Part shown: positions 13,860 through 25,792 of the stretch, in pieces
Numbering within the stretch: the first letter of the stretch is position 1
Layout of the letters: every line of letters starts with the position of its first letter
Origin: a phage
Reading direction: 5' to 3' (one strand)
DNA length: 44,356 nt
Sequence record: QB031381.1
Notes under the pieces: model-generated
The model's database searches: none
What the model saw: only the letters and a program-made list of their open reading frames with translations
Told to the model about the DNA's origin: nothing
Position numbers and translations under genes: made by a program

Positions 13860-14551
13860 TTTAAATTTTCCTCGTTAACCGCTATCGCGAAGCCGCGCGG
13901 GGTGAGTGAGCGGATTAATTTTGTACGAGCGGATTTACCACCGAGGCGACTATACTGTTTCGAGTACCCTTTTTCAACGAAAACAGGTTTCTTCGCGGGC
14001 ATACGAAAGCCGTTGCCGGTCCATAAGCAGGTCAGCTTCGGATATGAATCGCGGGCGTTGATGTATTCAGGGAATAACGGGTGTACGTCATCCTCTGGCA
14101 AATAGCCGCCATACTCCCACGGGTCAAACGAGTGGTCCGGCTTACGCCATTGAGTGGAGAGCACGCTGCGCGGATTCTCAATCATATACGGCACTTCGAA
14201 GAAATCACCCAGGTAAGCGGCTATCTTCGCGGTGCGCACTGCCTTAAGCTGGAAGGCAGGGTCGCGGGCGCGTTTGCGCGGGAAAGCTGGCGCACCGCTA
14301 ACCGCCAGATCCGTACACGGCGGGAATGCGTAAATGATATCCGGCGTGCCGAAATCACCATTCATCGCGCGGTCCACGAAGTCCAGATCGATAAACTCAT
14401 TACGATATCGGATACCGCGCCCATAGATCCGGTAATCAAGGTAAGACCCGTGATCGGCTTCGGAGTAGTTGAAGCAATAACACTTATGCCCCATCTCGGC
14501 AGCACGCTCAATCATCAAGCCGCTGCCGTCAAATAATGACCATATAATCAC
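13856..14551 (-). CDS. DNA cytosine-C5 methyltransferase-like protein
   Basis: FxGxG-like motif (LFDGSG), PPC motif with catalytic-type Cys (FPPCTDLAVSG) and ENP motif (MIENP). Short at 231 aa for a full methyltransferase. Confidence 0.5.
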   Translation of the reverse strand: MIIWSLFDGSGLMIERAAEMGHKCYCFNYSEADHGSYLDYRIYGRGIRYRNEFIDLDFVDRAMNGDFGTPDIIYAFPPCTDLAVSGAPAFPRKRARDPAFQLKAVRTAKIAAYLGDFFEVPYMIENPRSVLSTQWRKPDHSFDPWEYGGYLPEDDVHPLFPEYINARDSYPKLTCLWTGNGFRMPAKKPVFVEKGYSKQYSRLGGKSARTKLIRSLTPRGFAIAVNEENLK

Positions 14552-15972
14552 TTGCGCGCCTTTTTAGCTTTCATGTATTCCATCAGGTCGTCCTGGATAT
14601 CTCGCTTACTGTCTCGACGCTCTGCGACCAGTTCATCCAGTGTGCCGCGCGCCTGGATAATGTAGACGAATACGGGACGAGGGTGTCCGGCTTGCATCTG
14701 GCGAACTGGCCCGATACGCTCCACGATCTGCGCAAAGTGCTCATAGTTCCAGGTGTCTGAGAAGATAGCAAGGTGGTGTCCGCCATCCTGCAAGTTAAGG
14801 CCGTGACCCGCCGATGCGGGGTGCGCAAACATGATGGGGATCTCGCCCCTGTTCCACGCTTCCATATCCTTATTGCCTTGCTTACCCTTACCCATCGCTA
14901 CGCCGTGCGGGAATTTCTTCCTGAGACGCGCCAGGTCATGCTTGTACTGGTATGCGACGAGCAACGGTGCGCCGTTCAACTCCTCCACGATACTTTCCAG
15001 CGCGTCCAGTTTAGCGTCGTGAATTTTCACCCATTCGTCGGTCCGTTCGCCGTCTTCGTCGACCTTATACACGGCCCCGGAAGCAAGCTGAAGGCACTTA
15101 ATGGTCTTCGAAGCAGCGTTCGCCGCCTCCACCGTTCCGCTTTCCAGTTCGGCAAATAGCTCCGCTTCGAACTGGTCATAAATCTTGCGGGCTTTCTTCG
15201 GCAGGTCCACAACAACCGGCGTATAGATTGGCTTGTCACATCCGAAGTATTCAGCCGCATCAACGGTGAGCGATACGTCAGACAGGCGTTGTTGTATTTC
15301 TTTCTCGGAGTTCTTAAGCGGGGCGTGCTGCATAGTGAAGCTGCCAGGCTTAACAGGCTTGCTAATAAACCAGCGATCCGTAAATGCCTTATAGCTACTG
15401 CCGAGGCGTTCGCCACCATCGACAAACCACGTCTGACCCCACAGGTCTTTCAGTCCGTTTGGCGCGGGTGTGCCGGTAAGGTTAATCCAGCGCTTGACGT
15501 GCTTATGGGCAATCGCCGCCAGTGCGCGGGCGCGCTTACTCCCCTGCTTGCTTCTATAGCCTTTCAGCTTAGTGGATTCATCGGCAACAACGACCGTAAA
15601 GGGCCACGCAGCGCCGTAATAGTCAACCAGCCACTCAACCACATCATAGTTAACACAAACCACGTTAGCGTCGCTCTCAAGCGCAGCAATGCGGTCCTTC
15701 TCTGGCCCTGTGCCGTCTACTACCAGCAGGGCGGGGAAGCGCCATTTCTCCTGCTCCGGGGGCCATGTACCGGACGCAACGCGCAGCGGGGCCAGCACCA
15801 GTACGCGGTCCTCCTGGTTGGACAGGATACCAGTCTGGAACATTTTATTCAGTGCCCACATGGTCGCGCCAGTTTTACCCGACCCCATTGTCGCCCAGAT
15901 ATTGCATCGCTTATGCTTGAGGATGAACGCGGTTATCAACTTCTGATATTCGCGACGTCGGAATCTTGCCAT
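14548..15972 (-). CDS. SNF2/DEAD-like superfamily II helicase
   Basis: Walker A GSGKTG, DExx box VVVADESTKL, LTGTPAPNGLKDLW and a C-terminal helicase domain. The listed ORF extends to 16062; ATG at 15972 (MARFRRR) avoids overlap with the upstream gene. Confidence 0.7.
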   Translation of the reverse strand: MARFRRREYQKLITAFILKHKRCNIWATMGSGKTGATMWALNKMFQTGILSNQEDRVLVLAPLRVASGTWPPEQEKWRFPALLVVDGTGPEKDRIAALESDANVVCVNYDVVEWLVDYYGAAWPFTVVVADESTKLKGYRSKQGSKRARALAAIAHKHVKRWINLTGTPAPNGLKDLWGQTWFVDGGERLGSSYKAFTDRWFISKPVKPGSFTMQHAPLKNSEKEIQQRLSDVSLTVDAAEYFGCDKPIYTPVVVDLPKKARKIYDQFEAELFAELESGTVEAANAASKTIKCLQLASGAVYKVDEDGERTDEWVKIHDAKLDALESIVEELNGAPLLVAYQYKHDLARLRKKFPHGVAMGKGKQGNKDMEAWNRGEIPIMFAHPASAGHGLNLQDGGHHLAIFSDTWNYEHFAQIVERIGPVRQMQAGHPRPVFVYIIQARGTLDELVAERRDSKRDIQDDLMEYMKAKKARK

Positions 15973-15976
15973 ATCT

Positions 15977-16195
15977 TTATTCCGCCTTTTTCCAGACTTC
16001 TGTCTCACTGTTCCAGTTCCTTTTTGTGGCGTCATAGTTGGTGCGGTGACCGATGTGCACACCCGTCGCCCGGAAGCTCTTAAATTTTTGCCAGCACACC
16101 GTCAACGGCAGCGGGTAATTCATACCGGCGATAAACCATACGCGATCGCCTGGTTTGCATTCGCCCAGCGTGGTAAGTCGGTAGTGTTCTTTCAT
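15977..16195 (-). CDS. Hypothetical protein
   Basis: Small ORF; the listed ORF begins at a TTG, and the internal ATG at 16195 has a GGGAGA RBS. Confidence 0.35.
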   Translation of the reverse strand: MKEHYRLTTLGECKPGDRVWFIAGMNYPLPLTVCWQKFKSFRATGVHIGHRTNYDATKRNWNSETEVWKKAE

Positions 16196-16472: not shown

Positions 16473-16731
16473 CCAATAAATCACAGTCGGCTATGTTGTC
16501 GATGACGCGAACGTCCGCACCGCGGCGGGCCATTCGCTCATGTTCTCGTACCTGGTGCGGCTTCGGTTTGCCACCGGGGCGCTTCACTTCGACGAAAACT
16601 ATCTTGCCGTTGATGATGATAATCAGATCGGGCGCACCTGCGCGCCCCTCCCAAGCCACTTTGCGGCAGAATCCGCCGACGGCTTTCACCAGCTTCATAA
16701 GGTGACTTTGAATCTTGCCTTCTGGTGTCAT
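16453..16731 (-). CDS. VRR-NUC domain nuclease
   Basis: GAPDLIII...VEVK pattern (PD-(D/E)xK core) in a 92-aa protein; start overlaps the polymerase stop. Confidence 0.6.
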   Translation of the reverse strand: MTPEGKIQSHLMKLVKAVGGFCRKVAWEGRAGAPDLIIIINGKIVFVEVKRPGGKPKPHQVREHERMARRGADVRVIDNIADCDLLVAELVA

Positions 16732-19022
16732 TATTTTCTGTACCTATACATAATGTCGCCTTCCGCGGCAAGCGGGAAGCCTTTCGCCCAAACCGGCAGG
16801 TCGCACATCAGCGCGCACAACTCCTCGGTTGTGTAGTCGGCAGTATCCGGCACTTCGGTTATCAGTTCATCGTGTACGGACAGTACGATCTCATATCCAG
16901 CAGCTTCAACGCCCGGCATGGACCATGCGAGGATATCGCGACACAGCGCCTGCACGATGTTTTCCGTGAGTTTGCCGCCGTAGGTGTACTGGGATCCCCA
17001 CTGGCGCGTCGTCTGATTCTCACCCTGATATTTAATGCGGGTGCTGGTGCGTTTCTTGCCGGTATCTTCGTCGATCTCGGTCGTCACTGACAGCGCAATG
17101 CCTGGATAACTCATAATACGCCCCGACGGCAACTCAATTTTCAACCACCACCCCGCGGCGTTCGGGTCGTCGCGTTCCTCGTCGAAGGTTGGGTCATGCT
17201 TCGCCTTCGTGCGGACTATCTTGAGCGCTTTCTTTCCATCCGGGCGAACGTTCGCGCCCGCCCAGTACGCTTTGCCCGGATTGCGGATTGCACACAACAC
17301 CGCATCTTCCAGTTCGGCCCAAAAGGCTACCGTCTTCGGGTGAGCCTCGCGCCACATGCGTTTGATCGCGTCACACGTCAGCCATACGTTTTTCGGCAGT
17401 ATGTAAGTCGGGCGCTCGTCCTTCTTGCCCGGCTTCGGCGGTCGCTTCGCTTCGTTAATGCGGGCGTACTCATAACCACGTTTCGCCGCCGCCCAAATGT
17501 GATCGGGGAATGTGCCCTTCATCACGTCAGCCATCGCATAAAGGTCGAGGCCCAGGTTTTTAGCGAACTGCAAGAACGCAGCCACGCCACCACCATAGCC
17601 AAGGCCCAATTCGCACGCCTTACCGATCTGGCGTAAGTCTTTGCGGTTGGCTTTAATGTATTCCGGGTCGAGGCCGAACATTTTACCGGCAGTCTCACAA
17701 TAAATATCGCGACCGGCCCTAAACACCATTAGCGCGGTTTTCTCTCCAGCGATCCAGGCGAGGCCACGCCCTTCCACGTTGGAGTAGTCAGCCACGACAA
17801 ACTTCTTGCCCTTCGCCGGAATAATGCACCCGCGAACAGTCGAGGCCGTTAGCTTCGATATGTCATACGCCCAGTGCGCTGTCCCGCGTAACAGGGAGTT
17901 GATGCCGTTGGTGAGCATGTGCGACCGAACCCAAAAAGAAACGTCGCTCTCGCCATCCCGGCGCTTAATCTTCCCTTCGTGGTCGTCACTATACTCGCCG
18001 CGTGCCAGGTTTTGCGGCTGGAAGCCTTTACCAGCCCAGCGCAGCGTGCGCTTTGCCCCACCATACTGAAGACAACCACGGCGGCGACCATCGGAAGACA
18101 GGCCATTTACGAGCGGATTGTACTTAGTCGATGCCGTTGATGATGCCCCGAGGCGCATCTCGATAAGCACTTTGCCTTCGTCTGGGAAGTCCGGGTCTTC
18201 CAGCAGGTCGTTAAGTGTGGACTTCTGCGCGTTGTGGATCGTGAACGCAGGCGCGAGGTCGCGCAGCGCGGGCAAGAAGTCATTGCCGGTCAGCTTACCG
18301 CCGAAGCGCTCCCATGCTTCTTCCTTCAATTCTTCCTTATGCGCCTGTACCGCTTTGATCGCAGCGCGCGCCAGGTCGACGTCCACATAGAAGCCGCGGT
18401 CATTGATCAACTGGTCAATAAGCAGGATTTCGTCTTCCTTCGGCGTGTTGCCCCAGTCCGGTATGCGCCAATAGACTTCCCTCATAGCGATGATATCCAA
18501 CGCGGCATAGCGCAGGAATTTGGCCCATTCTTCTGGGTGAGTCTTGCGGGTGTAACGGCGGATTTTGTAGGTCTTAGGGGTAGGCTTACAGAATCGTTTG
18601 ATCAGCGCCTTGCCCGCCTTATCCTTCGCGTGCTCTGCGTCAACGCCCAACACCTGACACTGCATATCGAGGCTACCAGGCAACGCGTGCCGAAAGGCCA
18701 TAATCATGGTGTCTTCGATCTGGCACACTGGCAGGTCAATGCCCCACTTCTCGCGAATAACCAGGCGGTCAAACAGGAGGCCGTTAGCCATCACGATTTT
18801 TGCTTTCTTGCGGGATACCCGGCGGAGCGCCTTGCGCAGTTCACGCGGCATTGTGGGGGACTCGGTGCAATCCCACGTTTGCACGCGGCCCTCGTCGATG
18901 GCGTATGTGCAAATCATAATCTCGGTAGTTGGGTGTTCCGCGTAGGCGTACGCACCAACTTTCTTCAGGTCTACCCCGCTAAATGTCTCGGTGTCGAGAA
19001 ACAGGCGTTCGAAGTCTTTCAT
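16731..19022 (-). CDS. Family A DNA polymerase (PolI-like) with 3'-5' exonuclease domain
   Basis: Exo motif FLDTETF; polymerase motifs DYSNVEGR, KxxxLGLGYGGG and VHDEL; 763 aa. Confidence 0.85.
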   Translation of the reverse strand: MKDFERLFLDTETFSGVDLKKVGAYAYAEHPTTEIMICTYAIDEGRVQTWDCTESPTMPRELRKALRRVSRKKAKIVMANGLLFDRLVIREKWGIDLPVCQIEDTMIMAFRHALPGSLDMQCQVLGVDAEHAKDKAGKALIKRFCKPTPKTYKIRRYTRKTHPEEWAKFLRYAALDIIAMREVYWRIPDWGNTPKEDEILLIDQLINDRGFYVDVDLARAAIKAVQAHKEELKEEAWERFGGKLTGNDFLPALRDLAPAFTIHNAQKSTLNDLLEDPDFPDEGKVLIEMRLGASSTASTKYNPLVNGLSSDGRRRGCLQYGGAKRTLRWAGKGFQPQNLARGEYSDDHEGKIKRRDGESDVSFWVRSHMLTNGINSLLRGTAHWAYDISKLTASTVRGCIIPAKGKKFVVADYSNVEGRGLAWIAGEKTALMVFRAGRDIYCETAGKMFGLDPEYIKANRKDLRQIGKACELGLGYGGGVAAFLQFAKNLGLDLYAMADVMKGTFPDHIWAAAKRGYEYARINEAKRPPKPGKKDERPTYILPKNVWLTCDAIKRMWREAHPKTVAFWAELEDAVLCAIRNPGKAYWAGANVRPDGKKALKIVRTKAKHDPTFDEERDDPNAAGWWLKIELPSGRIMSYPGIALSVTTEIDEDTGKKRTSTRIKYQGENQTTRQWGSQYTYGGKLTENIVQALCRDILAWSMPGVEAAGYEIVLSVHDELITEVPDTADYTTEELCALMCDLPVWAKGFPLAAEGDIMYRYRK

Positions 19023-19195
19023 TGCTTAACCCTCACTACGGCGTCAGCGCTGCCGATCATGGAGAAGACGCCATCGGAAAGGGTAATCTCCTCGCCGTTG
19101 TTGCGAATCTCGGCAACTGTGAAATATTCTCCCAGCATTTTGGACCATACCTGCATTCCGACTTTTACTTTGCTGGCTTTAATACGCATTTTCAT
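19020..19195 (-). CDS. Small hypothetical protein, translationally coupled to the polymerase gene
   Basis: 58-aa ORF (MKMRIKASKVKVGMQVW...) below the 60-aa ORF-track cut-off; AGGA RBS; its stop overlaps the polymerase ATG. Confidence 0.35.
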
Positions 19196-19246
19196 TGTCC
19201 TATTAAAAAGCCCGCATTAAGCGGGCTTGAATAGTGGGCTTCGCCC

Positions 19247-20026
19247 TTAACGGCGGCGACGTTTACGTGGTGCTTCGTCTTCGTCGTCTTCGTCCTCATC
19301 TTCATCGTCGCGCGGCTTACGACGTTTACGAGGTTTTTCATCTTCGTCGTCGTCATCGCGGCGCTTGGACTTTTTGGACTTGCGCGGCTTGTCGTCTTCG
19401 TCATCGTCATCACGACGTTTTGACTTTTTGGACTTGCGTGGGCTTTCATCTTCGTCATCGTTGTCCAGGTCTTCGTCGGAGCAAGAAGACCCGCCACCGC
19501 CGAAGGCTTCGCCGTCATCACGGAAGCGCAGACCCAAAAGACCAGCACCGAGTCCCTTGCCGTTGGTATTGTTCCACGCCCAAATATCCAGGGACACATT
19601 GCAATAACAACCGGAGTAGATCTCCTGGCCTTCGATCTCGTCGCCTTCTACGGTCAGACCTTGTTCCGTCTGCTTCTCGCCGAGTGACGTTTGAATGATC
19701 GGCTGTTTGAACGATTTGGCGTTGATGTACAACATGCCTTCGAATTCTTCGGTTACTTCGTCGCGCTCGTCACCGTCGCGAACTGCGCATTCCTTAGAAT
19801 CCTGGGCGTAGTGGCGGTCCATCCACTTATCAGCATTCTTCTCGGATTTCAGCTTGTCGGTGAGCACTGCGCGCGCTGCCGCTTCCACTTTGTCCACCTG
19901 CGGATCTTCTTTATCAAGAATAATCACTGCACGGTATGCCGGTTTTTGACCATCCTGTTTAGGGGTATCGCGTTCCCAAATTTTAAGGAAACATACGCGC
20001 ACATTTTTCAGGTTGACTTTAGCCAT
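19247..20026 (-). CDS. Putative ssDNA-binding protein with a long charged repeat C-terminal extension
   Basis: Start MAKVNLKNVRV with GAGGAA RBS. Sits between the Cas4-like nuclease and the polymerase. Gly-rich linker then an acidic/basic repeat tail. Confidence 0.5.
   Translation of the reverse strand: MAKVNLKNVRVCFLKIWERDTPKQDGQKPAYRAVIILDKEDPQVDKVEAAARAVLTDKLKSEKNADKWMDRHYAQDSKECAVRDGDERDEVTEEFEGMLYINAKSFKQPIIQTSLGEKQTEQGLTVEGDEIEGQEIYSGCYCNVSLDIWAWNNTNGKGLGAGLLGLRFRDDGEAFGGGGSSCSDEDLDNDDEDESPRKSKKSKRRDDDDEDDKPRKSKKSKRRDDDDEDEKPRKRRKPRDDEDEDEDDEDEAPRKRRRR
19250..19460 (-). repeat. In-frame tandem repeat (about 51-nt period) encoding KPRKSKKSKRRDDDDED-type units
   Basis: Near-identical nucleotide units visible at 19362..19440; about 3.5 units at protein level. 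Confidence 0.7.
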
Positions 20027-20091
20027 TTTCCAATTCCTCATTCTCGCATGTATCGGGGTTATTATGAGCCACCCCGTTCGGCTTGGTTGCT

Positions 20092-20121
20092 AATCTACTT
20101 GGTTGCGCCTGGGTGGTCAAG
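20092..20121 (-). promoter_or_regulatory. Candidate promoter (TTGACC-N18-TAGATT) with two TTGGTTGC copies
   Basis: Motif copies at 20083..20090 and 20099..20106 upstream of the SSB-like gene. Confidence 0.3.
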
Positions 20122-20359
20122 CATTTTCATTAAAAAGATTTCGGGTCACGTAGTTGGTGGCGTTCTCGACCCAGCTTAGCGGCGGGCGTTCGATGTTCTT
20201 TTCCACCCAATAGACGGCAGCTTCGCTATAGCCGTCGTCCAGCCAGCGGGTCGGATGGCGAATCATCCAGGCCACCATTAACACGCCTTGCACACAATGC
20301 AGGATAAAGCCCAGTGCGCCGAGCAAAAACATCAATAAGATTGCGAATACTTTATTCAT
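20117..20359 (-). CDS. Small membrane protein
   Basis: N-terminal TM segment (FAILLMFLLGALGFILHCV); 80 aa. Confidence 0.4.
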   Translation of the reverse strand: MNKVFAILLMFLLGALGFILHCVQGVLMVAWMIRHPTRWLDDGYSEAAVYWVEKNIERPPLSWVENATNYVTRNLFNENA

Positions 20360-21782
20360 TGCTTAAGTCCTCGTCAGTAGCTTCCGACCACGCGGGGCGC
20401 GGGTCGTCGATGGGCGCTAATACCGGTTTAGCCGGTGCGCGGGTGATTTTATCACACAGCTTCGCCCACACTTTCGGTTTTTCGTCCTTCAGCACCTTCT
20501 CGGCATCTGTCGGGCTGAGCAATGTTTCTTTGTACATCACATCGCGCTTGATCCGGGCCTTCGTGAAGATTTCAATCACTTCGCTCTCGTCTGCCCACTT
20601 ACGGATCCCTTCCTTACCGGCAACCATCTTAAGGCCCAACGATTTGCCATCGCCCGCCATGACCGCCTTGAATACCGCGGATTCGATAGCTTTGATGTGC
20701 TGGCGCATTGCGTCAAGTCCTTCATAAGCCTTGCGCAGTTCCGCCGCGCTCATAGCGCCTGGGGTGGATTCCTTCTTGCCCCGTTTAGCACGTCGGGCAG
20801 CCTTCCGGGCTTCGCGGGCCATATTGCGGTCGTGGTTGGCGCACTCTTCCTCGGTTGCCACGCTCACGTCGTCGCCCAGGTCTTCGTCGGTTGCCGTTGG
20901 TGGCGTCATTGTGTCGATTGCGGCCTTCGCCCGGACGCTGCACTGGTCCGCAAATCTGCACCACTGGCACGCATCGACGCTGGGCCGGAAGTCGGCGCGG
21001 GTCAGTCCCTTCTTGCCACGGGCGTATGTATCGAGCGCGGCGATAGCACGCTTGGACGCAAACTTCGCGGATATCTCCAGCGCTTCCACTGAGATATCCC
21101 ACTCTGACGCCCCGCCGCAATACGGCTGGAAGATGACCAGGCGCACGGTCGTAATGTCATACATGGTTTGCAGCTTGCGCAGCAGGCCGAGCGCGTACAA
21201 CATAAGCTGTTTGTTTTCTTTCGCCTCGACCTTATGTCGCCCGGTCTTCAAGTCGCCAACAATCAGCATGTACGTGCCATCGGTCTTCTTCATGACCATG
21301 ACCATATCGGCAGTGCCGAACGTCTTAACCTTGTTACCGTCGATCTCGACTCCTGGGTGGAGGACGCGGGTGAGATCGGCGCGCATCTCAAGCTGGACAA
21401 ACTCCGCCACTTCGAGGAGCGGTCGCCAGTGGTCGATGTACGCGTCGCACTGTTTCACCATATCGTCGTTGACCAGTACGCCGCCTTTCGGTGCTTTCGG
21501 GTGCGCCTTTACTGGCCCCTTGCCTTCATTCTCGACGTAACATCCTTTATACGTCTTTGCTGTTATCAGCTTTTCACCGGCGATAATGCGGTTTAGCACC
21601 ACTTCAGATACGGTGTGCATACTCGTACCGTTAATCGCGGCTTGCCCGGATTCGTTCGGGATATCTTTTTCTACCACCAGGGCGGCGGGACACCCCATCC
21701 ATTTTTTAGCACCGGATGGGCCAAGTAATGAGTGTTCCGTATTGCTGCCGGATTGCGTTTTACGTTTTGGTTTAATCGCCAT
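20352..21782 (-). CDS. PD-(D/E)xK exonuclease, Cas4-like, with four-Cys cluster
   Basis: N-terminal SGAKKWMGCPA plus C-terminal CQWCRFADQC (C-x2-C-x5-C) gives a four-Cys arrangement like Cas4/AddB-type Fe-S nucleases; 476 aa. Confidence 0.6.
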   Translation of the reverse strand: MAIKPKRKTQSGSNTEHSLLGPSGAKKWMGCPAALVVEKDIPNESGQAAINGTSMHTVSEVVLNRIIAGEKLITAKTYKGCYVENEGKGPVKAHPKAPKGGVLVNDDMVKQCDAYIDHWRPLLEVAEFVQLEMRADLTRVLHPGVEIDGNKVKTFGTADMVMVMKKTDGTYMLIVGDLKTGRHKVEAKENKQLMLYALGLLRKLQTMYDITTVRLVIFQPYCGGASEWDISVEALEISAKFASKRAIAALDTYARGKKGLTRADFRPSVDACQWCRFADQCSVRAKAAIDTMTPPTATDEDLGDDVSVATEEECANHDRNMAREARKAARRAKRGKKESTPGAMSAAELRKAYEGLDAMRQHIKAIESAVFKAVMAGDGKSLGLKMVAGKEGIRKWADESEVIEIFTKARIKRDVMYKETLLSPTDAEKVLKDEKPKVWAKLCDKITRAPAKPVLAPIDDPRPAWSEATDEDLSNE

Positions 21783-23527: not shown

Positions 23528-25792
23528 ATGAGCTTAATTAAATTCGCTGTAACACGACCCGCTAAAAAAGGCGAAAAAGCCAGGGCGGAAAACTTCCAGA
23601 TGACAACTGATGAATTTTTCGAATTTATCAATGACGCGAAAGAAATCTCATCGGTGCACATCAACAAGACCGAGGATAAAGCCGAGTATGCGCGCCGCAA
23701 GCGCAAGGCCGATGGCATCGTGGCATATACCAGTGACGGCCTACGCCGTAAGACCAGCGCGGTGGACCGCTCGATCCTGTTCTTTGATATTGACCGCACC
23801 GATACTCGCACCTTGCGCCGCTGCCGTAAGGCTTTCATCGACGCGGGTCTGGAACACGTATTCCACACCACAACCGGCGACCGTCACCCACTGAAAGGCG
23901 GCACGCGTTGCGCCCGTTTCCTGGTGTTGACGGACAAGCCTGTCCCGGCGGAAGACCTGGGCCGTGTCCAGTATGCGCTATTACACCAACTTGGTCTGTC
24001 AGATGTGGACTTCGACGATTGCACGAAAGACACAAACCGCCTGATGTACCTGCCGCACCAGCAATCGGTTATTAAGTGCCGCTACGGCAAACGTGCCAAT
24101 GTGCGGCGTCTGCTCCGCCTGGCGGACAAGCTGGGGGTGGAGAAAGAGGAAGTACGCCGCGAACTAACCCAGGGCGACGACGAAGTGGCTGACGGCATTC
24201 TTGATTGGTGCTTCCAGGCTGGATTCGAGCCACTATCGTCCGGGCGTGGCTATGAAGTGCCGTGTCCGAACGAACATCTGCACAGCGGCGAAGGGTCGAC
24301 GGCTATCATGGTCAAGGATGGCGAGATCCGTTTCAAGTGTATGCACACCGGAAACGAGTGTTGCTCGGAACTGAACCGACACCAGCACCTGGCGCTTCGT
24401 CTTATCGGGATCCCGGACCACCTGAACGTCGAGCCACACAATATGTCCCGTAAGCAAATCGCCGCCATCCTGCCAGGTCTGGACGACGAGGAAGTCGAAT
24501 CCTTATATGATCACATTGTTGATGCGGTTGGCGACGGCGAAGAATATGGCGTGTGCACCGATGCGGATCTGGATAACGAGCCGGTTGCGCTGTTCAGTAA
24601 GCACGACCCGATCATCGAAGGTCTGATTAACTTCAAATCGACCTGGTATATGGCGGGCGAGTCGAACATCGGCAAGTCCTTCTATGTGCTGGGGCAGATG
24701 GGCGCGGTTGCCGCGGGTATCCCGTTTGGCGGTGCGAAGGTCGTCCAGTCTCATTGCTTCTATTTCGACGCGGAAGGCGGCGAAGCCTCCAACCAGCGCA
24801 AAGAAGCATTGCAGATTAAATACGAGCACGACCTGGATAAGCTGCACATTATCGATCTGCAATCACGCGGCTGGGATATCACCAGCAAATCAGGCTTGCG
24901 CGAAGTTATCAGCTATATCAACCGCACCGCTAACGGCGAGCCGGTCGGCCTGGTGGCGTTCGACTCACTCAACCAGACTGTTGCGTTGCGGTCCGCCGAT
25001 GCTAAACCGTTCGACGAGAACAACGCCAGCGATATGGGTGAAGTGGTCAAAGCGCTGAAAGCCATCGCGGAAAATACAGGCGGCAGTGCGGGCGTCATCC
25101 ACCACCCGGCGAAAGGGGCAAACGGCAGCAGAACGCCACGCGGGTCCGGCGCGCTGCATGGTGCTGTCGATTCTGCTTTCTTCCTGGAACAGCCGGACGA
25201 CAACCAGCCCGGACAATTGAACCTGTACCACGAAAAATCACGTAACGGCATCAAGCAAGCGCCGCGTGGCTTCGTCCTGCTCAAGTGCAAAGTTAAGGTT
25301 GATCTCCGCAAGTCTGAGGCATTCGCGTCGCACCAGTCCACCAGCACCGGGCCAGACTTCGGGGATGTGGTTGCCGGTTGGGACGTCAAGCCAATTGCAT
25401 CCACGCCACGCGACGAGACTCTCTACCTCGTACCGGTCGCCCTGGCACCGTTCGCTATAGAACAAGCGAAGGCCGCAGGAAAAGCCGCAGTTAAGGAAGA
25501 AAACGCCGCCGGTCCGCGCACCGAAAAAGAGAAAGTGCTTTATGCGGCCCTGGAAAAACTGATGGAAGATAACCCGGACCATACTGGTTTCAGTAAATCG
25601 GCAATCGTCCGCCAGGCGGGACTCGCTAAGGGTGGCACTTCGACGAAGGCAATCGACGATATGGTCGAGCGCGGCGTGATTGGTTTCTATACAGATCCGC
25701 ACACCGGGGCCATATATGGGTCGTCGAATTTAGTCATCAAATCGGATATCCCCATCACGCTTTCGGCGACCGATGATGACCTGAAAGATTAA
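23528..25792 (+). CDS. Primase-helicase (AEP-type primase/polymerase N-terminal domain plus P-loop NTPase domain)
   Basis: DxD motif (ILFFDIDRTD), Cys/His zinc-binding region (CPNEHLH...CMHTGNECC), Walker A (GESNIGKS) and a RecA-like segment; 754 aa. Confidence 0.7.
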   Translation: MSLIKFAVTRPAKKGEKARAENFQMTTDEFFEFINDAKEISSVHINKTEDKAEYARRKRKADGIVAYTSDGLRRKTSAVDRSILFFDIDRTDTRTLRRCRKAFIDAGLEHVFHTTTGDRHPLKGGTRCARFLVLTDKPVPAEDLGRVQYALLHQLGLSDVDFDDCTKDTNRLMYLPHQQSVIKCRYGKRANVRRLLRLADKLGVEKEEVRRELTQGDDEVADGILDWCFQAGFEPLSSGRGYEVPCPNEHLHSGEGSTAIMVKDGEIRFKCMHTGNECCSELNRHQHLALRLIGIPDHLNVEPHNMSRKQIAAILPGLDDEEVESLYDHIVDAVGDGEEYGVCTDADLDNEPVALFSKHDPIIEGLINFKSTWYMAGESNIGKSFYVLGQMGAVAAGIPFGGAKVVQSHCFYFDAEGGEASNQRKEALQIKYEHDLDKLHIIDLQSRGWDITSKSGLREVISYINRTANGEPVGLVAFDSLNQTVALRSADAKPFDENNASDMGEVVKALKAIAENTGGSAGVIHHPAKGANGSRTPRGSGALHGAVDSAFFLEQPDDNQPGQLNLYHEKSRNGIKQAPRGFVLLKCKVKVDLRKSEAFASHQSTSTGPDFGDVVAGWDVKPIASTPRDETLYLVPVALAPFAIEQAKAAGKAAVKEENAAGPRTEKEKVLYAALEKLMEDNPDHTGFSKSAIVRQAGLAKGGTSTKAIDDMVERGVIGFYTDPHTGAIYGSSNLVIKSDIPITLSATDDDLKD

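What the first reader, a model, noticed from the sequence alone, without database searches (positions are those of the whole stretch)
19247..20026. SSB-like protein carries a long tandem-repeat tail alternating basic and poly-acidic segments
Phage SSBs usually end in a short acidic tip. Here the C-terminal third is about 3.5 tandem copies of a 17-aa unit (KPRKSKKSKRR followed by DDDDEDE), encoded by near-perfect 51-nt DNA repeats at 19250..19460. Such repeats are prone to expansion and contraction and may tune protein-protein interactions or phase behaviour. The identification as an SSB rests on gene context and N-terminal pattern only.
Basis: partly seen in the sequence, partly recalled or inferred. 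Interest (0 to 1): 0.5.

Follow-up and report, generated by a model that had tools for sequence, protein, structure and literature searches.

The report
Phage SSB with acid/base repeat tail

Summary
Window 19247-20026 (-) encodes a 259-aa SSB of the T7 gp2.5/Enc34 type (Pfam PF10991, E 3e-31; confident AF2 core matching Enc34 SSB and T7 gp2.5). Near-identical SECphi4/SECphi18 orthologues are published triggers of Retron-Eco8.

The last 84 residues are predicted disordered: four acidic blocks alternate with four Pro-initiated basic blocks, ending in APRKRRRR. The unit is 18 aa/54 nt, not 17/51. Only two copies are clearly homologous, at 81% nucleotide identity, so "near-perfect" is wrong.

The tail is selected. 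Copies differ mostly synonymously, pN/pS is 0.13 against 0.075 for the fold, and charge segregation (kappa 0.54) exceeds all 2000 shuffles. Close relatives carry 2, 3 or 4 basic blocks through in-frame indels.

About 10% of PF10991 proteins have such tails; the rest have a short acidic tail with a hydrophobic tip. A gp32-fold SSB family of jumbo phages has the same tail in 118 of 120 members. No paper found describes it.

The mechanism is inferred: an electrostatic, multivalent extension of the SSB tail that tunes self-association and partner or DNA contacts. It is a new variant of a known kind, of moderate interest.

The parts
19247..20026 (-). SSB gene (259 codons plus TAA stop at 19247-19249), T7 gp2.5/Enc34 type
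   Evidence: ORF and RBS; PF10991 E 3.2e-31; PHROG 112 E 2.5e-51; 95% nt identity to Dhillonvirus genomes where it is annotated as SSB / Gp2.5-like protein
19502..20026 (-). Folded OB-type ssDNA-binding core (residues 1-175)
   Evidence: AF2 pLDDT 94-98 over residues 1-170. Foldseek: 4klk 2.9e-13, Enc34 SSB 5odl 2.6e-12, T7 gp2.5 1je5 2.6e-6. W149 and N153 align with Enc34 DNA-contact residues Trp150 and Asn154 (the numbering offset is my inference). Y137 and G139 are invariant in 68 homologues
19478..19501 (-). Gly/Ser-rich hinge GGGGSSCS (residues 176-183)
   Evidence: Sequence; pLDDT falls to about 70-75 here
19445..19477 (-). Proximal acidic motif DEDLDNDDEDE (residues 184-194), counterpart of the conserved D-[DE]-F-[DE]-D-L start of canonical tails
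   Evidence: Coordinates. Present in all 15 Dhillonvirus orthologues. Canonical relatives show DDFEDL / DEFEDL at the same place
19412..19444 (-). Basic block 1, SPRKSKKSKRR
   Evidence: retained in every Dhillonvirus variant, including the 2-block ones
19391..19411 (-). Acidic block DDDDEDD
   Evidence: with block 1 it forms repeat copy 1 (54 nt)
19358..19390 (-). Basic block 2, KPRKSKKSKRR
   Evidence: absent from HK578-, EP23-, Envy- and EK99P-1-like relatives
19337..19357 (-). Acidic block DDDDEDE
   Evidence: with block 2 it forms repeat copy 2, 81% nt identity to copy 1, 7 synonymous vs 2 non-synonymous codon differences
19310..19336 (-). Basic block 3, KPRKRRKPR
   Evidence: absent in L010 (EP23-like)
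19274..19309 (-). Long acidic block DDEDEDEDDEDE
   Evidence: its length varies by whole codons among relatives
19250..19273 (-). Conserved basic C-terminal tip APRKRRRR, in place of the usual acidic/hydrophobic SSB tip
   Evidence: Unchanged in 14 of the 15 compared Dhillonvirus orthologues; the most divergent, L016, ends KPRSRRNRR. RPRRRRR / QPRRRRR tips occur in relatives down to about 45% identity
19205..19228 (-). GC-rich hairpin plus T-run (AAGCCCGC-TTAAT-GCGGGCTT-TTT) just after the stop: a likely intrinsic terminator or attenuator before the 58-aa gene and the polymerase gene
   Evidence: Read directly; not flagged by the consensus scan, so weak

Best explanation
Shown. The gene encodes the phage's ssDNA-binding (and probably strand-annealing) protein of the T7 gp2.5/Enc34 family. 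It sits in the conserved module exonuclease - SSB - DNA polymerase - helicase, with a divergently transcribed primase-helicase.

Its C-terminal third is predicted to be intrinsically disordered and is a strongly charge-segregated polyampholyte. It was built by tandem duplication of a module: an acidic block followed by a basic block that starts x-Pro-(Arg/Lys). The array follows the ancestral proximal acidic motif. In this lineage a conserved basic tip (APRKRRRR) stands where most family members have an acidic/hydrophobic tip.

Unit number changes by in-frame gain and loss. The end points fall in the GAY/GAR-coding acidic tracts, as expected for slippage or unequal recombination.

Inferred mechanism. 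The acidic blocks keep the known role of SSB tails: they mimic ssDNA, occupy the DNA-binding cleft and dock on basic patches of replisome partners. The basic blocks resemble the Lys-Arg-Lys-Ser-Thr 'LAST' cooperativity motif of T4 gp32 and SPKK/protamine-type motifs. They would pair with acidic blocks of neighbouring SSB molecules and/or with the DNA backbone.

The tail would then act as a multivalent electrostatic zipper. It would be self-neutralised in the free protein and released on ssDNA binding, promoting cooperative clustering (possibly condensation) of SSB at replication and recombination intermediates. Unit number would set the valency. The reversed-polarity tip implies a partner contact unlike the classical acidic-tip/basic-pocket contact.
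For: Identity. A near-identical SECphi4/SECphi18 protein triggers Retron-Eco8, with escape mutation T56P in the folded core.

Context: DNA polymerase 16731-19022, exonuclease 20352-21782, helicase 14548-16062 and helicase-primase 23528-25792. The same DUF2800 - SSB - polymerase - SNF2 order appears in distant phages with alternating tails.

Disorder: tail pLDDT 50-62.

Charge patterning: fraction of charged residues 0.75, net charge per residue -0.08, kappa 0.54 against 0.11 +/- 0.04 in shuffles.

Selection on the protein, not the DNA:
- Copy 1 vs copy 2 differ at 7 synonymous and 2 non-synonymous codons.
- pN/pS is 0.128 in the tail and 0.075 in the core across 15 orthologues.
- Pro is at position +2 of 275 of 329 acid-to-basic boundaries in 105 distinct tails; Arg is at -1 in 232 of 274 basic-to-acid boundaries and Ser at -2 in 155 of 274.

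Copy-number change: 2, 3 or 4 basic blocks in relatives whose core is about 99% identical. GenBank spans for a 601-nt query range from 497 to 616 nt. Fresh duplications appear elsewhere.

Recurrence: alternating tails occur in several separate clades of the family tree. A gp32-fold SSB family of jumbo phages has them in 118 of 120 members, with the same x-P-K-K boundary.

Precedents:
- Removing the acidic tail of Enc34 SSB lets it bind dsDNA (PMC5686142).
- The T7 gp2.5 tail modulates DNA binding and is implicated in binding T7 polymerase and helicase-primase (PMC10359462; PMC13402713).
- The gp32 LAST motif and an acidic region control cooperativity (PMC12893549).
Against: No experiment or computation here addresses what the basic blocks bind. 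No complex modelling was possible.

Copy number varies among otherwise near-identical, viable phages, so valency is not tightly constrained.

The pN/pS values are simple pairwise proportions against one reference, not tree-corrected.

The boundary-motif statistics come largely from a search seeded with the tail itself, so they are biased towards similar tails.

The resemblance to LAST, SPKK and protamine motifs is by composition and short motif only.

The net tail charge is still negative (-7). A simpler reading, 'a long acidic tail with spacers', is therefore not excluded.
Confidence: 0.5

Rival explanations
1. DNA-binding arms. The basic blocks act mainly as non-specific nucleic-acid clamps of the SPKK/histone H1/protamine type, giving the SSB a second DNA-contact mode. 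That mode would help strand annealing, dsDNA/ssDNA junction binding or DNA compaction. The acidic blocks would only mask them until the protein is on DNA.
For: Basic blocks read xPRKSKKSKRR / xPRRRRSR, with a near-universal Pro at +2 and a frequent Ser. By my own recall this resembles SPKK and protamine motifs. PHROG 112 is annotated as an ssDNA binding and annealing protein. Removing the acidic tail of Enc34 SSB unmasks dsDNA binding (PMC5686142).
Against: Every basic block is flanked by an equal or larger acidic block and the tail is net negative, which would oppose DNA binding in cis.
Confidence: 0.2
2. Spacer plus docking tip. Only the proximal acidic motif and the last residues (APRKRRRR) are functional, as docking peptides for the polymerase, helicase-primase or a host factor. 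The internal units are an adjustable, self-neutralising linker whose length matters little.
For: The proximal acidic motif, basic block 1 and the tip are retained in all 15 Dhillonvirus variants (the tip altered only in the most divergent, L016), while the internal units come and go. Related clades keep RPRRRRR tips.
Against: Where present, the internal units are also under purifying selection (pN/pS 0.13 over the whole tail). They keep a defined x-P-basic...S-R motif across distant lineages and in a second SSB fold, which a mere spacer would not need.
Confidence: 0.18
3. Tolerated low-complexity expansion. The repeats are slippage products of GA-rich codons with no function of their own beyond being harmless.
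For: Copy number varies among very close relatives. Perfect recent duplications exist. The GAY/GAR tracts are slippage-prone.
Against: Differences between copies are mostly synonymous. Tail pN/pS is 0.13. The Pro and Ser/Arg boundary residues are conserved. The alternation is kept in orthologues down to about 30% core identity and arose on a gp32-type fold as well. Slippage of acidic codons alone would not create regularly spaced basic blocks.
Confidence: 0.07
4. Arms-race surface. Tail variation is driven by bacterial defences that sense phage SSB (Retron-Eco8, Hachiman, ShosTA, AbpAB), or the acidic blocks act as DNA-mimic decoys against host nucleases.
For: Dhillonvirus SSB is a defence trigger. 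SSBs are frequent targets of sensing.
Against: The Eco8 escape mutation T56P lies in the folded core, and other escapers lie in the promoter. Deleting the T7 tail does not affect Eco8 activation (PMC13402713). The tail shows purifying, not diversifying, selection.
Confidence: 0.04
5. DNA-level element. The 54-nt repeats are iterons or another cis-acting site (origin, packaging or regulatory) embedded in the coding sequence.
For: Direct repeats at regular 54-nt spacing inside a replication module.
Against: The copies have diverged mainly at synonymous sites, so the DNA sequence itself is not conserved. There are no inverted repeats. Distant relatives keep the protein pattern with different unit lengths (12-44 aa, mostly 13-21) and different codons.
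Confidence: 0.01

Closest known systems
Enterobacter phage Enc34 ORF6 SSB and the DUF2815/PF10991 family (PDB 5odj/5odl, 4klk, 4jg2)
   Same: Same family by sequence profile and predicted fold. Same gene neighbourhood (DUF2800 nuclease - SSB - polymerase). Same layout of an OB-type core followed by a disordered tail that begins with an acidic motif.
   Different: Enc34 and about 88% of representatives have a 15-76 aa (median 26) purely acidic tail, and 118 of those 128 canonical tails end acidic plus hydrophobic. Here the tail is 84 aa, alternates four acidic with four basic blocks, and ends in a basic tip.
T7 gp2.5
   Same: Same fold class (Foldseek E 2.6e-6). Same general role. The tail is known to regulate DNA binding and to contact polymerase and helicase-primase. 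Both T7 and Dhillonvirus SSBs trigger Retron-Eco8.
   Different: About 11-13% identity. The gp2.5 tail is short and acidic and ends in Phe (sequence). It has no basic blocks and no repeats.
T4 gp32 with its LAST motif (Lys-Arg-Lys-Ser-Thr) and acidic C-domain
   Same: A phage SSB in which a short K/R/S/T basic motif and acidic regions interact electrostatically to gate DNA binding and give cooperativity (PMC12893549). This is the nearest mechanistic precedent for basic blocks such as PRKSKKSKRR.
   Different: A different fold. In gp32 the basic motif is N-terminal and single, and the acidic domain is C-terminal; they are not interleaved tandem repeats.
PaBG-type jumbo-phage SSBs (phrog_15004, gp32-like core)
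   Same: The same tail architecture: [D/E]n followed by x-P-K-K-K-K blocks, 3-8 times, in 118 of 120 members.
   Different: An unrelated or only very remotely related core. There is no PF10991 hit, hhalign matches only 25 columns, and Foldseek matches RB69/T4 gp32. The tails are Lys-rich rather than Arg-rich, and most keep an acidic or DDIPF-type tip.
E. coli-type SSB intrinsically disordered linker plus acidic tip (own knowledge, not tested here)
   Same: A disordered linker between the OB fold and a terminal docking peptide, reported to tune cooperativity and phase separation.
   Different: The bacterial linker is Gly/Gln/Pro-rich and nearly uncharged. Here the linker is 75% charged residues in segregated blocks, and the tip is basic.
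Eukaryotic nucleolar/chromatin disordered regions with alternating acidic tracts and Lys blocks (nucleolin, Nopp140, histone H1 with prothymosin-alpha; own knowledge)
   Same: Blocky alternation of D/E tracts and (S/T/K)P(K/R)K-type basic blocks, associated with nucleic-acid binding and condensates.
   Different: No homology and a different cellular setting. This is a compositional analogy only.

Membership tests
T7 gp2.5 / Enc34-type SSB (Pfam PF10991, PHROG 112) | Sequence-profile match above the curated threshold | tested here: met
   PF10991: 108.8 bits against a cutoff of 26, E 3.2e-31, residues 3-193 on profile positions 2-173 of 176. PHROG 112: E 2.5e-51.
T7 gp2.5 / Enc34-type SSB (Pfam PF10991, PHROG 112) | Modified OB fold as in the Enc34 ORF6 and gp2.5 crystal structures | tested here: met
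   AF2 core pLDDT 94-98. Foldseek probability 1.00 to 4klk, 5odl, 5odj, 4jg2 and 1je5.
T7 gp2.5 / Enc34-type SSB (Pfam PF10991, PHROG 112) | Conserved ssDNA-contact residues (Enc34 Trp150 stack, Asn154, Tyr156) | tested here: inconclusive
   By the phmmer alignment to 5odj, W149 aligns with Trp150 and N153 with Asn154, but Tyr156 aligns with N155 (W151 is nearby). The 2-residue numbering offset is my inference.
T7 gp2.5 / Enc34-type SSB (Pfam PF10991, PHROG 112) | Preferential binding of ssDNA | not testable with these tools
   Indirect only. The SECphi4 orthologue is reported to bind Retron-Eco8 msDNA and trigger the system.
T7 gp2.5 / Enc34-type SSB (Pfam PF10991, PHROG 112) | Unstructured acidic C-terminal tail ending in an acidic/hydrophobic tip | tested here: not met
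   The tail is disordered and starts with the acidic motif. It is interrupted by four basic blocks and ends APRKRRRR. This departs from the usual tail of the family, not from the fold or profile that define membership.
T7 gp2.5 / Enc34-type SSB (Pfam PF10991, PHROG 112) | Location in a phage replication/recombination module | tested here: met
   Flanked by an exonuclease (phrog_69) and a DNA polymerase (phrog_17), with a helicase and a helicase-primase nearby. The same order occurs in L021 and L022.
Genus Dhillonvirus (HK578-like E. coli siphophages) as source of the window | Genome-scale nucleotide similarity to named members | tested here: met
   95-96% identity over 1301 nt to phages SD276, PEC9, Sponge and SSL-2009a. 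154 records cover at least 80% of the query. Only this region was compared, not the whole genome.
T4 gp32 LAST-motif cooperativity mechanism (works-like comparison only) | A (Lys/Arg)3(Ser/Thr)2 motif that binds an acidic surface of the neighbouring SSB | not testable with these tools
   Motif-like strings (RKSKKSKRR) are present. No interaction test was possible. The precedent comes from PMC12893549.

The most novel reading that the evidence does not exclude
Alternating acidic / Pro-initiated basic repeat tails are a distinct class of SSB tail, not described in the papers I could search, that phages evolved at least twice (on gp2.5/Enc34-type and on gp32-type cores). They would work as multivalent electrostatic zippers that drive cooperative SSB assembly or condensate-like replication/recombination foci, with copy number as an evolvable valency dial. 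In Dhillonvirus-like phages the tip polarity is inverted, implying a partner-recognition mode unlike the classical acidic SSB-tip interaction.
Probability: 0.3. Interest if true: 0.7.

Novelty: new variant of a known kind. Interest (0 to 1): 0.5.

Why it matters
The acidic C-terminal tail with its terminal docking peptide is often treated as a universal feature of bacterial and phage SSBs; the Enc34 paper says so explicitly. This protein, and the related SSBs of other enterobacterial siphophages examined here, break that rule in a regular, selected way. An unrelated SSB fold in jumbo phages does the same.

If the tails control SSB cooperativity, condensation or partner choice, three things follow. 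They offer a simple natural system for studying how charge patterning and repeat number tune a disordered region, because natural 2-, 3- and 4-unit alleles exist on nearly identical cores in easily grown E. coli phages. They bear on how small phages organise replication. They are also relevant to recombineering tools and to work on defence systems that sense these SSBs.

Tried and rejected
1. Searching the 5.8-billion-protein collection with the tail alone, to see which other protein families carry it: no hit passed, probably because of HMMER's composition correction.
3. Erwinia jumbo-phage blastn hits to the tail DNA: these are a plain poly-D/E protein without basic blocks, so irrelevant.
4. 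DNA-level function (iterons, hairpins): no inverted repeats, and the copies diverge at synonymous sites. Rejected.
5. An overlapping gene in the open alternative frame 19192-19599: the frame is open as a by-product of GAY/GAR codons, and the only 'products' are frameshifted database entries P0005 and P0008. Not pursued.
6. Defence-escape mutations in the tail: the Eco8 escaper entries read (part 6 of 21 of the supplementary file) map to T56P or the promoter, none to the tail. Hachiman and ShosTA escaper positions were not read.
7. Literature searches for a description of alternating tails found none. The two Mol Cell 2025 Eco8 papers are not held, so they could not be checked.
8. hhalign between the two SSB families gave only a 25-column N-terminal match. 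This is too little to claim homology.
Full report
**1. What is there**

The minus strand between 19247 and 20026 carries a 259-codon ORF. Its ATG at 20026 is preceded by GAGGAA, and a second in-frame ATG lies at 20041. All orthologues begin MAKVNL.

The window is a Dhillonvirus, the HK578-like group of E. coli siphophages. The region is 95-96% identical to phages SD276, PEC9, Sponge and SSL-2009a, and 154 GenBank records cover at least 80% of a 1.3-kb query.

The neighbours on the same strand are an exonuclease (20352-21782), a small 80-aa ORF, this gene, a 58-aa ORF, DNA polymerase I (16731-19022) and a helicase (14548-16062). A helicase-primase is transcribed divergently (23528-25792).

**2. 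Identity of the protein**

- Pfam PF10991 (Enc34_ssDNA-bd) matches at E 3.2e-31 over residues 3-193.
- PHROG 112, 'Gp2.5-like ssDNA binding and annealing protein', matches at E 2.5e-51.
- Sequence search of the PDB finds 4klk, 4jg2 and the Enc34 SSB 5odj/5odk.
- An AlphaFold2 model built on 68 homologues has pLDDT 94-98 for residues 1-170. It matches 4klk (E 2.9e-13), the Enc34 SSB-ssDNA complex 5odl (2.6e-12) and T7 gp2.5 1je5 (2.6e-6).
- In the alignment to Enc34, W149 and N153 fall on the DNA-contact residues Trp150 and Asn154. Tyr156 is not conserved (the numbering offset is my inference).

There is also experimental anchoring. The nearly identical proteins of SECphi4 and SECphi18 are the 'predicted SSB (Gp2.5 family)' whose mutation T56P, or promoter mutations, let those phages escape Retron-Eco8. 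Expression of the SECphi4 protein triggers that system, and it is reported to bind the retron msDNA.

**3. The tail**

Residues 176-259 read: GGGGSSCS, DEDLDNDDEDE, SPRKSKKSKRR, DDDDEDD, KPRKSKKSKRR, DDDDEDE, KPRKRRKPR, DDEDEDEDDEDE, APRKRRRR, stop.

The unit is 18 aa / 54 nt, not 17 / 51. TRF gives period 54, 2.3 copies and 85% matches. The acidic tracts recur at 54-nt spacing four times. The two good copies are only 81% identical in DNA, so 'near-perfect' is wrong.

The tail has 28 K/R and 35 D/E in 84 residues. That is a charged fraction of 0.75 and a net charge per residue of -0.08. Its charge-segregation parameter kappa is 0.54. Shuffles of the same residues give 0.106 +/- 0.042, and none of 2000 exceeds 0.275. 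AF2 gives pLDDT 50-62 throughout the tail, so it is predicted disordered.

**4. Is the tail selected?**

The two good copies differ at nine codons, seven of them synonymously. Against 15 Dhillonvirus orthologues, summed pN/pS is 0.128 in the tail and 0.075 in the folded core. These are simple pairwise proportions and are not tree-corrected. The amino-acid sequence of the tail is therefore almost as constrained as the fold, while the DNA drifts. That argues against both a neutral low-complexity expansion and a DNA-level element.

**5. Copy-number variation**

The core is about 99% identical across these relatives, yet the tail varies:

- Four basic blocks in most relatives (256-261 aa).
- Three in the HK578-, Envy- and EK99P-1-like loci (236-241 aa) and in SECphi4.
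- Two in the EP23-like locus (224 aa).

All indels are in frame. Their end points lie in the acidic tracts, as expected for slippage or unequal recombination between GAY/GAR runs.

A sample of 41 GenBank Dhillonvirus records gives spans of 497-616 nt for a 601-nt query. In all 15 orthologues compared, the proximal acidic motif and basic block 1 are retained. The APRKRRRR tip is unchanged in 14 of them; the most divergent, L016, ends KPRSRRNRR.

Other lineages show ongoing duplication. Salmonella phage GRNsp27 has a 48-nt unit at 100% identity (2.3 copies). A metagenomic relative has about six 39-42-nt units.

**6. How unusual is it in the family?**

A search of 1.84 billion representatives with the folded domain only, so unbiased with respect to the tail, found 1969 relatives. 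I classified 145 of the best 150:

- 128 have a plain acidic tail (median 26 aa). Of these, 118 end acidic plus hydrophobic, for example DDDDLI, DDIPF or EDDFLD.
- 15-17 have basic blocks in the tail.

On a neighbour-joining tree of the core, alternating tails fall in several separate clades. One clade comprises enterobacterial siphophages: Dhillonvirus, Guernseyvirinae such as GRNsp27 and VSiP, phiEap-2, Klebsiella VLCpiS11a, and Serratia and Edwardsiella phages. Other clades have 4-11 units and keep the canonical acidic/hydrophobic tip, such as DDDVA or DDDDI.

The usual architecture is therefore core, acidic motif, then (basic + acidic) repeated n times, then tip. The Dhillonvirus group ends instead on a basic block.

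Across 105 distinct tails and 329 acid-to-basic boundaries, Pro occupies position +2 in 275 cases (84%). At the 274 basic-to-acid boundaries, Arg is at -1 in 232 and Ser at -2 in 155. The unit is thus a real motif, [D/E]n-x-P-[R/K/S]-[R/K]...S-R, and not only a charge pattern. One caveat applies: many of these sequences came from a search seeded with the tail.

**7. Recurrence on another fold**

A weak blastn hit of the tail DNA led to the SSB of jumbo phage PaBG. This 403-aa protein sits next to a UvsX-like recombinase. Its tail is DDDDDEDD / KPKKKKKSKPAFS repeated about five times. It has no PF10991 match and belongs to phrog_15004.

Its family was retrieved with the N-terminal 257 residues only, 120 proteins listed. 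It shows at least one basic block in 118 of 120 and three to eight in most. Pro is at +1 or +2 of most boundaries. Tips include WDDDDE, DDIPF and KKKK.

An AF2 model of the core (pLDDT above 90 for residues 21-250) matches RB69 and T4 gp32 (E 1e-5 to 1e-4) and not gp2.5. hhalign between the two families aligns only 25 columns.

The same tail design therefore sits on two different SSB folds. Independent origin is the simplest reading. Ancient transfer of a tail module cannot be excluded. Either way it has been retained by selection twice.

**8. Mechanism: shown versus inferred**

Shown:
- SSB identity.
- A predicted-disordered, charge-blocky tail.
- Purifying selection.
- Unit gain and loss.
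- A conserved boundary motif.
- A conserved basic tip in this lineage.
- Recurrence on a second fold.

From the literature:
- The acidic tails of gp2.5-type SSBs modulate DNA binding (PMC10359462).
- They are implicated in contacts with polymerase and helicase-primase (PMC13402713).
- In Enc34 the tail enforces ssDNA over dsDNA specificity and lies in a neighbour's groove in the crystal (PMC5686142).
- In T4 gp32 a short Lys-Arg-Lys-Ser-Thr 'LAST' motif and acidic regions interact to gate DNA binding and create cooperativity (PMC12893549).

Inferred: in this protein the acidic blocks keep the DNA-mimic and docking role. The LAST/SPKK-like basic blocks pair with acidic blocks of neighbouring molecules and/or the DNA backbone. 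The tail is then a multivalent electrostatic zipper that promotes cooperative clustering of SSB on ssDNA, with unit number setting valency. The basic tip implies a partner contact of inverted polarity.

I put about 0.9 on the descriptive part and about 0.3 on this specific mechanism. The rivals are listed separately: DNA-binding arms; spacer plus docking tip; neutral expansion; arms-race surface; DNA element.

**9. Comparison with what is known, and novelty**

The protein is a member of the PF10991/gp2.5-like family by profile, fold and context. It departs from the family's usual tail.

I found no description of alternating tails in the Enc34 structure paper, the Retron-Eco8 papers I could read, or several full-text searches. 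In the escaper study the flexible C-terminal residues were simply not displayed. Two Mol Cell 2025 papers on Eco8 and phage SSB are not held, so this is absence of evidence within a limited library.

I rate it a new variant of a known kind. The gene and its function are ordinary. The tail architecture, its convergence and its inverted tip are not.

**10. Verdict**

Interest is moderate at 0.5. This is a clear, widespread, selected and seemingly undescribed feature of a central replication protein, in an experimentally easy system, but without a demonstrated mechanism.

Noticed in passing
L017:2874-4085 (-) (Pseudomonas phage PaBG) and proteins P0250-P0369: A gp32-fold SSB family of jumbo phages carries the same alternating [D/E]n / x-P-K-K-K-K tail in 118 of 120 members (3-8 basic blocks in most). 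Tips are WDDDDE, DDIPF or poly-K.
   Followed up: yes
window 19019-19195 (-): The 58-aa ORF between the SSB and the polymerase gene (phrog_10102, unknown function) is the orthologue of a 56-aa protein. That protein was hit by a frameshift (SECphi18), and its upstream intergenic region was hit by other mutations, in defence-escaper phages. These entries sit beside the DNA-polymerase escapers in the supplementary table of bioRxiv 10.1101/2022.08.27.505566. I did not verify which defence system was involved.
   Followed up: partly
window 19192-19599 (-), alternative frame; proteins P0005 and P0008: The frame shifted by one base stays open through the whole tail and past the stop. Two database proteins, including the one from Escherichia phage vB_EcoS-22664B1, are frameshifted into it (tails such as ...MTKMKHRARLRSPNVVMT...). 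These are probably sequencing or assembly errors in the repeat, but real frameshift variants were not excluded.
   Followed up: no
L013:3001-3658 (IMG/VR contig end): The SSB tail of this contig runs into ...AVSYTHLRAHET at the contig end. This is the translation of a Nextera transposase adaptor, that is, untrimmed adaptor in a public viral contig.
   Followed up: no
L019:2460-3203 (-) (Salmonella phage GRNsp27, RefSeq NC_069147): The SSB orthologue is annotated as 'cell envelope-associated transcriptional attenuator LytR-CpsA-Psr', a misannotation. Its tail holds a 48-nt unit repeated 2.3 times at 100% identity, so the duplication is very recent.
   Followed up: partly
GenBank OQ221563.1 and MG065648.1 (hits H5/H71 and H59/H91): 'Acinetobacter phage NJ01' and 'Campylobacter phage A144' are 91-97% identical to E. 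coli Dhillonviruses over this region. The host labels look doubtful (contaminant or mislabelled isolates).
   Followed up: no
L021:5721-5984 (+) compared with window 20117-20359 (-): In a distant phage with the same module, a Tad2-like gene (PF11195, an anti-Thoeris family) sits between the DUF2800 nuclease and the SSB. The window has an 80-aa hydrophobic ORF of unknown function (phrog_11211) at that position. This may be a variable accessory slot.
   Followed up: no
window 19205-19228 (-): A GC-rich hairpin with a T-run lies directly after the SSB stop codon and before the 58-aa ORF and the polymerase gene. It suggests partial termination that would let SSB be made in excess over the polymerase. 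The consensus scan did not call it.
   Followed up: no
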